From the NCBI RefSeq assembly GCF_006345805.1, contig NC_043013.1:1984001-2048000 (forward strand): a stretch of DNA of 64,000 nt. The letters run 5' to 3'. The DNA is from Octopus sinensis. Lineage: Eukaryota. Below are positions 50,901 to 56,900 of the stretch, one piece after another (position 1 is the first letter of the stretch; each line of letters starts with the position of its first letter). The position numbers are program-made.

Positions 50901-53900
50901 CTTGGTCAAGGGATGCACTTCGACACTTGATAGCTAGAAAATGTTGCCGAAGGGAAATGATGCGACATTCAAAGGCATTTTGGATCGATGTTTAGCCTCC
51001 TATGGTATGACTGTATGTATGAATCCGTAAAAAAAAACATACGCATCAGTCAGAAAATTGTTAATAACCTGTGAATTGAACAAAAGTAACTTATGTCTTT
51101 TTTTCTTTTTGCTTCACGAGTTGTACAAAAACTTCCTTGTTACTTTAACTGTGTAAATTTAAAATCAATACTATGTATTTAAAACCTGAATTGCCTCCCT
51201 TTATATTGAAGCCGGAGTTATTTCCCTTGCAGAGGAAGTTAGATTCACTAAGGGAGATAACTGAAGGTAATTAAAAGTTTTCCGAAAACGTTTCCATCGC
51301 GTTCATATGTATAAGTTTGACTAAGGGCGATGAGCTGGCAGAATCGTTAGCACGCCGGGCAAAATGCTTTGCCGGTATTTCATCTGTCTTCATATTCTGA
51401 GTTCAAATTCTGCCGAGGTCGACTTTGCCTTTCATCCTCTCGGGGTTGATTAAATAAGTATCACTTACGCGCTCGGGTCGATGTAATCAGCTTAAACCCT
51501 TCCCCAAAATTTGATACCTTGTATAGATGCTTCACTAAATGTCATATAGATGCTTGAGTAAATATATCTTTGCGAAGTCTTTGTTAATTTTTTAAAATAA
51601 TGATTATTAAAAAAACAATTGAAAAAAAAAGAAAAAGAAAAAGATACGTGTTCATTTTCTGTCCACTGTTTACTTGAGTTAAATTACATTGGGCTAAAAA
51701 GAAAGAATATATATATATATATATATCGTTAGCCACTACACACATTTTTTTCTCTCCTTGTTTTTTCAGTGTTCCTTTCTGTAGAAGAGCGCAGGCTCGA
51801 AATGTAAAAGACTTTTTCTATTCCTGAGCCAGTATGCTCTGATGGATGTGTAATGTCAGTGTGCATACTCGACAGAGTGTAAGTACCTTGAGAGAAAATT
51901 TGGACCTAAGAAGCATCAGATGTCATATGCAAGAGAGACGACTGCACTGGTATGGCGATGTTGTGAGAATGAATGTGGATAGCTGTGTAGAAAAGTGCCA
52001 CATCATTGTGGTTGAGGGAACCTGTGGAAGAGGTAGACCCAGGAAGACCTGGGATGAGGTGGTGAAGCTTGACCATCAAACATTGGGCCTCACGAAGCAA
52101 TGACTAGTGACTGAGACCTTTGGAAATATGCTGTGCTTGAGAAGACCTGGCAAACCAAGTGAGACCATAACTTCATGGCCTATGCCAGGGTGTAACCAGC
52201 CCACTTATGCATACCTTTCCTTCATTAGACACTAAACTCTGCTTGCGAAGACCTGTTGAGGCAAGTGAAATCATAATCAAAATCAAATTTGATGATTAGC
52301 ATCTGTGCTAGTGGAGCGCTAAGAGTACCATACGAGTGTGATCATTGCCAGAGCAACAAACTGGCTCCCGTGCCGGTAGCATGTAAAAAGCACCATTCAA
52401 GCCTGATTGCTACCTGCATCACCTTACTGGCACTTGTGCTTGTGACATGTGAAAAAACATTTGAGTGAGGTCATTGCCAGTGTCGCTGGACTGGCTCCTG
52501 TGCAGGTGGCACATAAAAAGCACCATTTGAGCGTGGCCATTGCCAGTACCACTTGACTGGCCCTCGTGCCGGTGGCATGATTAACTTCCTACTTTCAATT
52601 TTTTGTCTATGTTAAAAAATCCTATCTTTGAATTATTTTGAAGAATTGTTAAAGCTTCAGACAAAATCCTTTATGACAAAAGTTTCCAACTTGGCTCTGA
52701 GAATTTAATTCAAAGTTTGCAGAGTTGGGAGACCTTTCAAAATCTTAGATTTATTTAAATTTATTTAAATTAAAAGATTTTTTAACATCTCAAATGCTGA
52801 AAACTTCAGTCTTTCAGGATTTGCTCCATTTCATTACTCTCTGTGTTCAAATCCTGCTGAGGTCAACTATGCTTTACATTCTTCTGAGGTCAATAAAATA
52901 AAGTACCTGGAGATGACGGTATAGAATAAGACACCTCTCCTCAAGATTGCTGGTCTTGTGCCTAAATTAGAAACCATTATTAGTATTAATATCTTTTGCA
53001 ATATCTTTGTTATGAATTCCTTTAAGGTTACCTTTACTAATACCCAAGGTTAAACAACAACAAATACCATCAATCATCACACCTTTATTTTCAATTTTTG
53101 TTACACCTGTATACTCGCCTTCTCTGATCTCCTTTCCTTGCAGTACTCTCCTTTTCTTTCATCATCATAATCATCACCAACACAGCCACCAGAACTATCA
53201 CCAACTATATCACATCCTTTTTATAATCCTTTTCTTTTTGGCCCAACTCAACATAATCACCACTTACAATACTGCCTCCACAACCATCATTACCACCACA
53301 ATTACCAACTTGTGATCTCTCAACACATGACCCACCTACTAGTGGCACAATTACTTATGACTCATCAATTTGTGATCCATCAACTTGCAATCCATCAACT
53401 TGTGACCCATCAACTTGTAATATATTATCTTGTGACTCTTCAATTTGTGATCCATCAACTTGCAATCCATCAACTTGTGGCTCATCTTTGTATGATTCAT
53501 CTACCTGTGACCTATCTACTTGGGATCCATCAACTTGTGTTTCAACTTGAGCTTCATCAACTTGTGATGCTTCAACTTGTGATCCTTCAACTTGTGACCC
53601 ATCAACTTGTAATATATTATCTTGTGATCCATCAATTTGTGATCCATCAACTAGCAATCCCTCAACTAGTGATCCATCAACTTGTGATCCACCAACTTGT
53701 AATATATTATCTTGTGACTCATCAATTTGCGATCCATCAATTTGTGATCCATCAACTTGTAATCCATCAATTTGTGATCCATCAACTTGCAATCCATCAA
53801 CTTGTGACCCATCAACTTGTAATATATCATCTTGTGACTCATCAATTTGTAATCCATCAACTAGTGATCCATCAACTTGTGACCCATCAACTTGTAATAT

Positions 53901-56900
53901 ATCATCTTGTGACTCATCAATTTGTGATCCATCAACTTGCAATCCATCAACTTGTGACCCATCAACTTGTGACCCATCAACTTGTAATATATTATCTTGT
54001 GACCCATCAACTTGTGACTCTTCAACTAGCGATCCCTCCACTAGCAATCCATCAACTTGCGATCCATCAACTTGTAATCCATCAACCTGCAACCCATCTA
54101 TTTGAGATCCATCAACTTGCAATCCATCTACTTGTGACCCATCAACTTGTGACTCTTCAACTAGTGAACCTTCAACTTGTGATCCTTCAGCTTGTGACCC
54201 TTCAGCTTGTGACCCTTCAGCTTGTGATCCTTCAACTTGTGATACTTCAACTTGTGATCCTTCAACATGTGACCCATCAACTTGTGATCCACCAACTTGT
54301 GAGTCATCAATTTGTGACTCCTTAGCTAGGAAGCCATCAACTTCATGTCTATCATCTTGAGACACACGAACCAGTGTATCAATATCATCATCTTCTAATG
54401 TTTCAGTTTGCAAAAGAATATAATTATTTAGGGATTTCAGGTGATCTTGTAATAATTCTGGTTCTTTATCAGGTTTGCCATTAGTGTCTTCATCACTTTT
54501 ATTACTCATGTCATCATTACCACCACCATGACCACCACCACCACCATCATCATCCTGATTGCAAATACTACCAACACGATCAACACCATTATCACCACCA
54601 CCACCACCACCAACACTATTAGCACCATCCCCATTAATGTTACCTTCAGTACCACCATCATAGACATTGGCTGCATAAAACTCTGGATCAATTTGCTTCT
54701 CTAACAAATATTTAGAAATTTCCAAATCTTTTCTTGAAATGTCATCATTGTTGTCAGGAGCAGCTGTCATTTCCATAAGTGGCCCTTCCTCTTCTGTCAA
54801 GCCTCTTCCTGGAGACATCAAGCTAATACTGGGGCTCTCCTTATGGCAATCTTGAGGCAGATTTTGATCCACTGACTTATGTTGATCCAGTAAATATTGG
54901 AGACTCAAGATCAAGCTTTCAGTTGAACATTGTGGCTTCAGTTTCAGAAGATATTTATTGAGTTCACCTGTGACAGAAATAAAAAAAATAAAAAATAATC
55001 AAAATAGATTTAAATTTTTTTTTTTTTTTGGAACGGTGGATCATGAAGCACATATAAAACTATAAATAACAGCACATAAATATTGGGTTGAAAATCTAGC
55101 TTTATGTCCTTCAAGATTCGCTGTTCCATAAAAAAAGTATTATTTTATGTACTCCTCACTTGTGTCTCGAATGGCCACTGCACCTACAAAAATTACCCTC
55201 CAAGACGCAAGTCCTGGCAAGATTGTTGATGGAAGACCAGCAGTCGCTCATGCATACCAGCCGGTGTTATCCAAGGGAAAGACAAGGGCTGATACAGCTT
55301 GACACAAGGGATGCTGCAACTAATTTCTACAGCTGAGTGAACTGAAGCAACATGAAATAAAGAGTCTTGCTCAAGAACACAACTCATAACCTGGTCTGAG
55401 AATTGAACTCACTACTTCATGATTCTGTGCTCTACGCTCTAACCACTGAGTCATGGACCTTCGCTTTACAACACCAAAAACTGGTAAGAATAAAGTTTCT
55501 AAAGTGGATAGACAAATTCAAAAGATTGCTAAGGTTTAATGGTAGAACACTTGACATGTTTACAGGAGATGTAGGTTCAAGTTCCAAGGCAGCTTTGATT
55601 TCTTCTATCTAATATTTACAGCTTTATTTCCTTCGAGATCCACTGTTTTAAAAAAGACTTATTTCATGTTCTCTCCAAAGTTTCTTATGGACAATAGCAG
55701 TAAAAATTAAACTGTTCAGTTTAGACAAGAATTCAACAACTGATTAGTATTAGATATCCAGCTCTTAAACATAGAACTGTTAACTTGGCTAAATTGTACC
55801 AAGAATAATTAACACATTGGTGCTGGTGCCACGTAAAAAGCACCCAGTATACTCTGTAAAGTAGTTGGCCTTAGGAAACACATCCAGCAGTAGAAACCAT
55901 GCCAAAACAGACCTCACTGATTCTGGTGCCATGTAAAAAAGCACTCAGTCCATTTTGTAAGGTGGTTGGCACTAGGAAGGGCATCCAGCTGTAGAAATCA
56001 TGCCAAAACAGTGAAGCCTGGTGCAGTCTTCTGCCTAGCCAGCCCCTGTCAAACTGTCCAACCCATGGCAGCATGGAAAGCAGATGAAATAATGATGATG
56101 ATGAATGACCAAGTAATAGCATCTCTATACTTCTCATCTCTTTCAATGAGTCGACATGTTTCAGAAGATTATCAGCCAACAAACATCATAAATTTATTTA
56201 CCCAACACTTTTTGTATATCTTTTAATTCTTCATACAAAATATGACAGAATCATTATTTCAAATCCTGTTGTGCTCAAATACTTCTTTATTTCCCTCATA
56301 GAATTTGAACCCAGAACATAAAGATGGATGAAATGTTGCATCTTGCCTAGCATGCTGAAAATTCTTCCAGCTCGTCACCTTAAAGATATTCTATAGTATT
56401 AGTTATTTTCTTTAGAACATCATAAATGGTGATGCCAATTCAACATGATACTCTTCTTTGGCAAGTCTTCAGTCACTCTACATTGTTAATCACTAAACTG
56501 AGGACAAACAAAGTAGATGTCATCTTTTATTATGTAAATTGAATAAATAAATCATAACAGAACAAATGGTAAGTTAGGAGTGTTTATGTAATTTACTTGA
56601 CTTTCAATCACAGGTGTAGAAACCCATTGACTATGATGCAACTCAGACTCTTAGCAGTATGTATTGATACCTGTGACAAGATTCTTTACCTTAAAATATT
56701 TCCCTCATAGCATCAATCTTTATAATTATGATATCCAATAAATTATAGAGTTAATTTATAAGAGGAAGCTTAAAATATTTCATTCATTCTATAACAACTA
56801 CATCGACCTCTCTAATATATTGGGTATTGGCAGATAATGTATTTTTTATATTTAAAACAGGGATATTAAAATATTTCCTGTTAAGCTGATCTTTATTAGG

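What the first reader, a model, noticed from the sequence alone, without database searches (positions are those of the whole stretch)
53355..54967. Unidentified host protein with a long acidic pentapeptide (S/L-Q-V/I-D-G) repeat domain
Seen: a real-looking splice acceptor, >530 open codons, three short L-x-x-Y-(L/I)-L segments (ELNKYLL, EISKYLL, LNNYILL) separated by Gly/Asp linkers, then ~60-65 in-frame 15-bp repeats punctuated by a recurring ESQD(N/D)ILQ unit (a higher-order repeat). All length variation preserves the frame. I do not recognise the protein. Inference: a lineage-specific repeat expansion that is either disordered or a beta-solenoid, very acidic and possibly cation-binding or structural. 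This is the best candidate for novel biology in the window.
Basis: partly seen in the sequence, partly recalled or inferred. Interest (0 to 1): 0.7.

Follow-up and report, generated by a model that had tools for sequence, protein, structure and literature searches.

The report
Orphan exon with acidic pentapeptide minisatellite
This is most likely the last coding exon of a gene with no detectable relatives, two thirds of which is a 15-base repeat read as an acidic five-residue unit; it is a familiar kind of fast-evolving low-complexity protein, not a new fold or system.

Summary
On the minus strand a 547-codon open frame (54998..53355) starts just upstream of a strong acceptor (17 of 20 pyrimidines, then CAG|G at 54968/54967). 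It reads 216 non-repeat codons with three [LI]xxY[LI]L segments. Then come 64 units of a 15-bp repeat (S/L-Q-V/I-D/E-G); the only length variant is an in-frame 12-bp unit.

The non-repeat part is open far beyond chance (0 of 20,000 shuffles). The SQVDG frame has no stop, although it has the most stop-making single changes (4 of 45); other frames carry 2 to 10 stops.

No relative of the non-repeat part was found (0 hits among 1.84 billion representatives). Only short, independent SQV[DE]G runs turned up in three unrelated proteins.

Hits to period-5 or beta-solenoid families (CfAFP, CefA, designed pentapeptide solenoids) look like periodicity artefacts: the broken antisense frame hits keratin at 4e-21. 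No unit (0 of 63) fits the pentapeptide-repeat consensus, and AlphaFold confidence is 38-40.

pN/pS among units is 0.72, as in a wrong frame. The stop is a mutated repeat codon, and the array continues past it.

Best reading: an orphan, probably disordered polyanionic low-complexity exon. Transcription, function and organism were not tested.

The parts
54968..54998 (-). Polypyrimidine tract and CAG acceptor at the 3' end of an intron. The open frame begins here, after the stop at 55001..54999.
   Evidence: sequence; 17 of 20 pyrimidines; 5 comparable sites in the window on both strands.
54318..54967 (-). Non-repeat part of the exon. It starts in phase 1 (GT completes a split codon) and then reads 216 codons. 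Acidic (D+E 46, K+R 18).
   Evidence: 0 of 20,000 shuffles open.
54945..54962 (-). First [LI]xxY[LI]L segment (LNKYLL)
   Evidence: Low-confidence helix 2-8.
54702..54719 (-). Second [LI]xxY[LI]L segment (ISKYLL). Its Leu codons (TTG TTA) differ from those of the first copy (CTT CTG).
   Evidence: Low-confidence helix 78-89.
54486..54659 (-). Gly/Asp/Asn-rich linker made of (GGT)n/(GAT)n-like triplets (residues 103-160)
54414..54431 (-). Third [LI]xxY[LI]L segment (LNNYIL)
   Evidence: Low-confidence helix 168-187.
53358..54317 (-). 15-bp coding minisatellite of 64 units (one of 12 bp). Consensus TCA CAA GTT GAT GGA = S-Q-V-D-G. 38 distinct nucleotide units and 26 distinct peptide units among the 63 full units.
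53355..53357 (-). TAA stop, at the place where a repeat unit has CAA (Gln)
53208..53354 (-). Degenerate continuation of the array and a GGT/GAT-rich tail. The same frame stays open for 49 more codons, up to the TAG at 53207..53205. A GTAAGT donor-like site at 53267 sits on a codon boundary.
   Evidence: repeat similarity down to 53238
53084..53089 (-). AATAAA, 265 nt after the stop. A possible polyadenylation signal, and weak evidence in AT-rich DNA.

Best explanation
The region is most likely the large last coding exon of a taxonomically restricted (orphan) gene on the minus strand. It is spliced in at 54967 and ends at the TAA at 53355.

Its first 216 codons encode an acidic region with three short amphipathic [LI]xxY[LI]L segments joined by Gly/Asp-rich linkers. 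Its last 320 codons are a 15-bp minisatellite. The array probably grew by replication slippage or unequal exchange, because neighbouring units are more alike than distant ones. It is read as about 64 copies of S/L-Q-V/I-D/E-G.

Shown here: the frame, the acceptor, the repeat anatomy, the stop avoidance and the lack of relatives.

Inferred: the array is probably an intrinsically disordered, strongly polyanionic low-complexity tail (net charge about -73). It would act through bulk properties such as a charged spacer, cation or basic-partner binding, or condensation, and not through a defined fold. The three Tyr-Leu-Leu helices are the likelier specific interaction sites. The reading frame is under selection to stay open. 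The exact residues of the units are barely constrained.
For: - Frame and acceptor: 547-codon ORF. The acceptor has 17 of 20 pyrimidines and is one of 5 such sites in the window, 31 nt inside the ORF start.
- The non-repeat 216 codons are open in 0 of 20,000 dinucleotide shuffles.
- A peptide-level motif recurs three times with different Leu codons; 0 of 200,000 shuffles reach three.
- Period 15 (a multiple of 3), 63.9 copies, 0% indels. The single length variant is a 3-bp deletion.
- Stops within the array: SQVDG frame 0 of 320 codons, with 4 stop-making single changes of the consensus; HKLMD frame 10 of 319, with 2; antisense PSTCD frame 2 of 319, with 3; antisense HQLVI frame 0 of 319, with only 1.
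- 27 of 45 possible single variants are seen. Of the 4 stop-making ones only one is seen, and it is rescued by a second change (TAC). Hypergeometric P(0) = 0.02, P(<=1) = 0.17.
- Variation by codon position 1/2/3 is 26/54/62.
- Identity between units falls with distance, from 0.76 at 15 nt to 0.64 at 330 nt.
- No transposon or other domain in Pfam. No second copy in the window.
- Low AlphaFold confidence throughout, pLDDT 38.0 and 39.9, which fits disorder.
- Composition of the array: D+E 75, K+R 2.
- Repetitive low-complexity domains that evolve by slippage, are often disordered and bind calcium when acidic are described for molluscan secreted proteins (PMC4897951, passages read).
Against: - No transcript, orthologue or second haplotype could be examined, so splicing and expression are unshown.
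- No upstream exon or start codon was identified in the 9 kb upstream within the window. That stretch holds a Penelope-like element and SINE-like repeats.
- pN/pS among units is 0.72 in the SQVDG frame and 0.77 in a wrong frame, so there is no clear purifying selection on the peptide.
- The stop is CAA->TAA inside a repeat unit. Repeat-like sequence and an open frame continue for 49 codons beyond it, as expected of a recent truncation or decay.
- The antisense HQLVI frame is also open through the whole array.
- Another array in the same window (22558..23110, 16-bp period) is open in all three minus frames without any sign of coding.
- Zero homologues may partly reflect database content. Whether the protein sets hold this organism's proteome was not checked.
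- Low pLDDT from one sequence, or from three self-derived rows, does not prove disorder.
Confidence: 0.5

Rival explanations
1. A non-functional open frame. A 15-bp minisatellite together with GGT/GAT triplet repeats sits in an intron, in intergenic DNA, or in a decaying or very young (de novo) gene. The frame is open largely because the repeat unit has no stop in four of six frames.
For: - pN/pS is 0.72, against 0.77 in a wrong frame.
- The antisense frame is open through the array.
- The stop is a mutated repeat codon and the array continues past it.
- No homologue anywhere.
- The 16-bp array at 22558..23110 is open in three frames.
- The neighbourhood is rich in transposons.
Against: - The 216 non-repeat codons are open in 0 of 20,000 shuffles, and they are in the same frame as the array.
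- A strong acceptor lies exactly at the ORF start.
- A peptide motif recurs three times with different codons.
- The SQVDG frame has no stops despite 4 stop-making changes, while other frames have 2 and 10.
- The only indel is 3 bp.
Confidence: 0.3
2. The array folds into a beta-solenoid: either a non-canonical pentapeptide-repeat (Rfr-type) quadrilateral helix with S/L at i-2 and V/I at the centre, or a CfAFP-like triangular helix of three pentapeptides per turn. Asp/Glu would cover the surface.
For: - phmmer against the PDB hits designed pentapeptide-repeat solenoids (5dn0 E 6.4e-4; six more down to 0.014) and Qnr 3pss (E 0.31), in the register S(i-2) Q(i-1) V(i) D(i+1) G(i+2).
- A profile of the array hits CfAFP isoform 501, 1m8n (E 0.0042).
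- Pfam CfAFP scores 53 bits, above its cut-off of 25.9.
- AlphaFold draws short strands with a period of about 5 in both runs.
- Positions i-2, i+1 and i+2 fit the published consensus in 62, 57 and 55 of 63 units (consensus from PMC8145042, passages read).
Against: - No unit (0 of 63) fits all five consensus positions. The centre is never L/F and i-1 never fits.
- No Pfam pentapeptide family appears even at E up to 10.
- The array has 1 Thr and 0 Cys, whereas CfAFP relies on Thr-x-Thr and disulfides (recalled).
- Controls show that period-5 arrays hit period-5 families regardless of kinship. The broken antisense frame hits Keratin_B2_2 at 4.1e-21. The sense frame hits the 'Cys-every-fifth' CefA model at 7.8e-9 without having a single Cys.
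- pLDDT is 38.0 and 39.9, with 0 residues at 70 or more.
Confidence: 0.1
3. An ORF of an uncharacterised transposable element, for example an ORF1-like protein of one of the retroelements nearby.
For: Retroelement fragments flank the locus: zf-RVT at 50348..50584 (-), a Penelope-like RVT+GIY-YIG at 61413..62777 (+) and RVT_1 at 34632..36443 (-).
Against: - No second copy of either part in the window.
- No transposon domain.
- No relative among 1.84 billion representatives, which would be unexpected for a multi-copy element protein if related genomes are in the set.
- The start looks like an acceptor, not an element terminus.
Confidence: 0.05

Closest known systems
Repetitive low-complexity domain (RLCD) proteins of molluscs and other lineage-restricted repeat proteins (Kocot et al. 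2016, PMC4897951; passages read)
   Same: Short repeat units of about 10 residues or fewer and biased composition. There is often no homologue outside a narrow lineage. Evolution is by replication slippage. They are frequently disordered, and acidic versions are credited with calcium binding.
   Different: Secretion, tissue and any link to mineral are unknown here. No signal peptide can be assessed because the N-terminus of the protein is not in hand. That the organism is a mollusc was not verified.
Pentapeptide repeat proteins (Pfam PF00805; Rfr fold; review PMC8145042, passages read)
   Same: A long uninterrupted run of five-residue units (63, against the minimum of 8). A small or aliphatic residue sits two places before a central hydrophobic one, and Gly or an acidic residue sits at the last place. 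There are marginal PDB sequence hits in that register.
   Different: The centre is V/I, never L/F. Position i-1 is Q, so 0 of 63 units fit. No Pfam pentapeptide model matches. No confident fold was obtained.
Choristoneura fumiferana antifreeze protein (Pfam PF05264; PDB 1m8n, 1eww, 1l0s)
   Same: Periodicity is compatible with 15-residue turns. The Pfam score is above the cut-off and there is a profile hit at E 0.0042.
   Different: No Cys and one Thr in the array. The hit is of the same kind as the control artefacts.
Independent SQV[DE]G runs in unrelated proteins P0002, P0003 and P0004 (P0004 is named FAD:protein FMN transferase of Alicyclobacillus curvatus by NCBI)
   Same: The same pentapeptide in tandem, in runs of about 8 to 13 units.
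   Different: The runs are short inserts in otherwise unrelated proteins. The similarity to P0002 is confined to its residues 18-88. This is convergent slippage, not homology.

Membership tests
Pentapeptide repeat proteins (PF00805) | [quoted passage not shown] | tested here: met
   63 full five-residue units plus one four-residue unit. The criterion is from the abstract of PMC8145042.
Pentapeptide repeat proteins (PF00805) | Units fit the consensus (A/C/S/V/T/L/I)(D/N/S/K/E/I/R)(L/F)(S/T/R/E/Q/K/V/D)(G/D/E/N/R/Q/K) | tested here: not met
   Fit per position is 62, 0, 0, 57 and 55 of 63. All five positions fit in 0 of 63 units.
Pentapeptide repeat proteins (PF00805) | Match to the family's profile models | tested here: not met
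   No pentapeptide family is listed at E up to 1 or up to 10 for the array alone. Only marginal phmmer hits to designed solenoids (E 6.4e-4) and to Qnr (E 0.31).
Pentapeptide repeat proteins (PF00805) | Right-handed quadrilateral beta-helix, four units per coil | tested here: inconclusive
   AlphaFold pLDDT 38.0 (whole) and 39.9 (100-residue piece with two other pieces of the array as rows). No residue reaches 70. No fold search was run on such models.
CfAFP beta-helical antifreeze (PF05264) | Profile score above the curated cut-off | tested here: inconclusive
   53 bits against 25.9. However, the antisense control frame hits Keratin_B2_2 at 4.1e-21, and the sense frame hits the Cys-every-fifth CefA model at 7.8e-9. 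Both are equally 'significant' and equally implausible.
CfAFP beta-helical antifreeze (PF05264) | Thr-x-Thr ice-binding ladder and conserved disulfide Cys (recalled, not from a call) | tested here: not met
   The array holds 1 Thr and 0 Cys in 320 residues.
Molluscan acidic RLCD / shell-matrix-type proteins | Short, low-complexity, acidic tandem units evolving by slippage | tested here: met
   Description in PMC4897951.
Molluscan acidic RLCD / shell-matrix-type proteins | Secreted (signal peptide) and present in a mineralising tissue or matrix | not testable with these tools
   The protein's N-terminus lies outside the exon and was not found in the window. No expression or proteome data are available.
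Transposable-element protein | Multiple copies, or a transposon-type domain | tested here: not met
   No other copy in the 64-kb window. No such Pfam domain. Genome-wide copy number could not be tested.

The most novel reading that the evidence does not exclude
The 64 S/L-Q-V/I-D/E-G units form a previously unrecognised class of animal beta-solenoid. It would be a pentapeptide-repeat-like helix with a Val/Ile core and a fully Asp/Glu-lined surface, acting as a rigid polyanionic rod (a nucleic-acid mimic or a template for mineral or cations). It would have been born recently from a 15-bp minisatellite in an orphan gene.
Probability: 0.07. Interest if true: 0.6.

Novelty: new member of a known kind. 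Interest (0 to 1): 0.3.

Why it matters
If the exon is expressed, it is a clean example of a coding minisatellite making up most of a lineage-restricted protein. The frame is kept open while the residues drift, and the present stop was created inside the array. That is useful for studying how orphan low-complexity proteins arise and change length, but it does not open a new question. It would matter more only if the array proved to be a folded polyanionic solenoid or a component of a specialised tissue. Neither is supported here.

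Tried and rejected
1. Homology of the non-repeat part gave nothing. The word-indexed search of proteins of 294-938 aa and of 939-2680 aa found none. The exhaustive phmmer of 1,835,955,588 representatives found 0 hits at E<=0.001. The ESM Atlas gave no usable hit. 'Shorter' proteins were not searched with the word index. Whether these sets hold the source organism's proteome was not checked.

2. Homology of the array. 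3 of 8000 scored candidates passed, and all are short convergent runs. The best Atlas score was 0.87, below the 0.9 lead level.

3. Family scans. Pfam CfAFP and NCBIfam CefA were rejected as periodicity artefacts after the antisense control. DUF4261 (E 0.06-0.12) and FabI (E 0.25) are below their cut-offs.

4. Structure. Two AlphaFold jobs both gave low confidence. For that reason no fold search was run. The first self-alignment (A1) only re-tiled overlapping pieces and was not used.

5. Upstream exons. No similar module or convincing exon was found on the minus strand between 55000 and 64000.

6. Rfam at gathering threshold on 50000..64000 gave 0 matches.

7. Literature. 'pentapeptide repeat' + 'cephalopod' gave 2 papers, neither about such a protein (listing only). 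The ten-residue repeat string gave 0 papers. 'octopus, orphan genes, tandem repeats, genome' gave 5 papers, 3 listed, none relevant (listing only). These searches are the only basis for saying that I found nothing in print. Supplements were not requested.

8. Not done: genome-contig scan (prokaryotes only, judged uninformative); complex prediction (no binding claim); search_dna_similar (phage, plasmid and E. coli collections are irrelevant). The closed collections metagenome contigs and viral contigs were not touched, so relatives there stay unchecked.

Full report
WHAT IS THERE.
On the minus strand a stop-to-stop frame of 547 codons runs from 54998 to 53355. It is the second longest of all six-frame ORFs in the window, after a 603-codon reverse-transcriptase ORF. 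Ten codons into it lies ...ttatttctgtcacag|GTGAACTC. 17 of the 20 bases before CAG|G are pyrimidines, and only 5 sites in the window (both strands) reach 16 of 20. Read from that acceptor the exon gives 536 residues (P0001).

The first 216 residues are not repetitive at the 15-bp level. Their frame is open in 0 of 20,000 dinucleotide shuffles. They contain three [LI]xxY[LI]L segments, at residues 2, 83 and 179. Their Leu codons differ between copies (CTT CTG, TTG TTA, CTT TTG). 0 of 200,000 residue shuffles give three such hits; the pattern was chosen post hoc. A Gly/Asp/Asn linker (residues 103-160) is built from GGT/GAT triplets.

THE ARRAY.
TRF reports period 15, 63.9 copies, 53363..54317, 76% matches and 0% indels. 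My parse gives 64 units with consensus TCA CAA GTT GAT GGA (S-Q-V-D-G). One unit is 12 bp long, an in-frame deletion. Among the 63 full units there are 38 distinct nucleotide forms and 26 peptide forms. LQVDG (13) and SQVDG (11) lead.

The SQD(N/D)I unit recurs 6 times at irregular spacing of 6, 5, 8, 6 and 13 units. Unit identity decays smoothly with distance, from 0.76 at 15 nt to 0.64 at 330 nt, with only a slight bump at 75 nt. Growth therefore looks like local slippage or unequal exchange, not a strict higher-order repeat. The array has D+E 75 and K+R 2 in 320 residues.

IS IT CODING?
Openness of the array alone proves little, because the consensus has no stop in four of six frames and the antisense HQLVI frame is also fully open. 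A 16-bp array elsewhere in the window (22558..23110) is open in all three minus frames.

The distribution of stops is more telling:
- SQVDG frame: 4 stop-making single changes of the consensus, 0 stops in 320 codons.
- HKLMD frame: 2 such changes, 10 stops in 319 codons.
- Antisense PSTCD frame: 3 such changes, 2 stops in 319 codons.
- Antisense HQLVI frame: 1 such change, 0 stops in 319 codons.

27 of the 45 possible single variants occur. Of the four stop-making ones only one occurs, and there a second change makes it TAC (P(0)=0.02, P(<=1)=0.17).

Against strong constraint, pN/pS of the units relative to the consensus is 0.72, much the same as in a wrong frame (0.77). Variation by codon position is 26/54/62. 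I conclude that the frame is probably maintained but the residues are nearly free to drift. The best evidence for a gene is the non-repeat part together with the acceptor.

THE 3' END.
The TAA at 53357..53355 stands where a unit has CAA. Repeat-like sequence continues to about 53238. The same frame stays open for 49 more codons, up to the TAG at 53207..53205. A GTAAGT at 53267 falls on a codon boundary, and an AATAAA lies 265 nt after the stop. Both are weak signals in AT-rich DNA. The stop may therefore be a fairly recent truncation of a once longer exon. I cannot tell whether it is fixed.

RELATIVES.
The non-repeat part found nothing: not in the word-indexed searches, not in an exhaustive phmmer of 1.84 billion representatives (0 hits), and not in the ESM Atlas. 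The array found 3 proteins among 8000 scored candidates. All three carry short SQV[DE]G runs within otherwise unrelated sequences. For P0002 the similarity is confined to its residues 18-88. These are independent slippage products.

FOLD.
Pfam gives CfAFP at 4.8e-14 (53 bits, cut-off 25.9). NCBIfam gives the 'Cys-every-fifth' CefA model at 7.8e-9. phmmer against the PDB gives designed pentapeptide-repeat solenoids (best 5dn0, E 6.4e-4) and Qnr (E 0.31), in the register S(i-2) Q(i-1) V(i) D(i+1) G(i+2). A profile of the array gives CfAFP 1m8n at E 0.0042.

As a control I scanned the interrupted antisense frame of the same DNA. It hits Keratin_B2_2 at 4.1e-21. Period-5 arrays evidently score against any period-5 family.

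Measured against the published pentapeptide consensus (PMC8145042, passages read), positions i-2, i+1 and i+2 fit in 62, 57 and 55 of 63 units. Positions i-1 and the central one fit in 0 of 63. The array has no Cys and one Thr.

AlphaFold gave mean pLDDT 38.0 for the whole exon and 39.9 for a 100-residue piece aligned with two other pieces of the array. No residue reached 70. A solenoid is not excluded, but nothing supports it beyond periodicity.

CONTEXT.
The window is rich in retroelements. RVT_1 lies at 34632..36443 (-), RVT_1 at 5278..5802 (+), a Penelope-like RVT plus GIY-YIG at 61413..62777 (+), and zf-RVT at 50348..50584 (-). There are also many microsatellites. Neither part of the exon has a second copy in the window. 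No upstream exon could be recognised on the minus strand between 55000 and 64000.

VERDICT.
The most likely reading (about 0.5) is a real terminal exon of an orphan gene whose C-terminal two thirds is a coding 15-bp minisatellite, giving a polyanionic and probably disordered tail. This is a member of the well-known class of slippage-driven repetitive low-complexity domains (PMC4897951, passages read). A non-functional or decaying ORF is the main rival (about 0.3). A folded solenoid (about 0.1) and a transposon protein (about 0.05) are less likely. Interest is modest.

Noticed in passing
window 22558..23110 (ORFs 22330..23214, minus strand): Tandem array with a 16-bp base period (TRF periods 32, 48 and 80; 92-95% matches). 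It is open in all three minus-strand frames (294, 236 and 227 codons; SKSRKLKVTQAQSHAS-type peptides). It served as a control showing that long ORFs arise in non-coding arrays here.
   Followed up: partly
window 61413..62777 (+): A 454-codon ORF with weak RVT_1 (E 0.0014) and GIY-YIG (E 2.5e-4) matches, both below their Pfam cut-offs. This is the domain pair of Penelope-like retroelements (the naming is recalled). It lies in the presumed intron upstream of the exon.
   Followed up: partly
window 34632..36443 (-): An uninterrupted 603-codon ORF with RVT_1 at 4.7e-32. It is the longest ORF of the window and possibly a young LINE copy.
   Followed up: partly
window 55100..55408 and 63717..63938; also 60350..60586, 13892..14272, 3983..4288: Recurrent short elements whose translations share strings such as 'YPRERQ.LIQL' or 'YPQGA.PRGDKQGQT'. 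They are probably SINE-like dispersed repeats, and one sits 130 bp upstream of the acceptor.
   Followed up: no
window 39721..39820: A run of 100 N (gap or mask). Left unread.
   Followed up: no
window 53551..54105 (+), antisense of the array: The antisense PSTCD frame scores 75 bits (E 4.1e-21) against Pfam Keratin_B2_2, although it is interrupted by stops. This is a caution about curated cut-offs with tandem pentapeptides.
   Followed up: yes
P0004 (NCBI: FAD:protein FMN transferase, Alicyclobacillus curvatus), residues about 130-175: A bacterial enzyme carries an inserted run of SQVDG / SQVDR / SQLDR units. This is the same pentapeptide arising independently.
   Followed up: no
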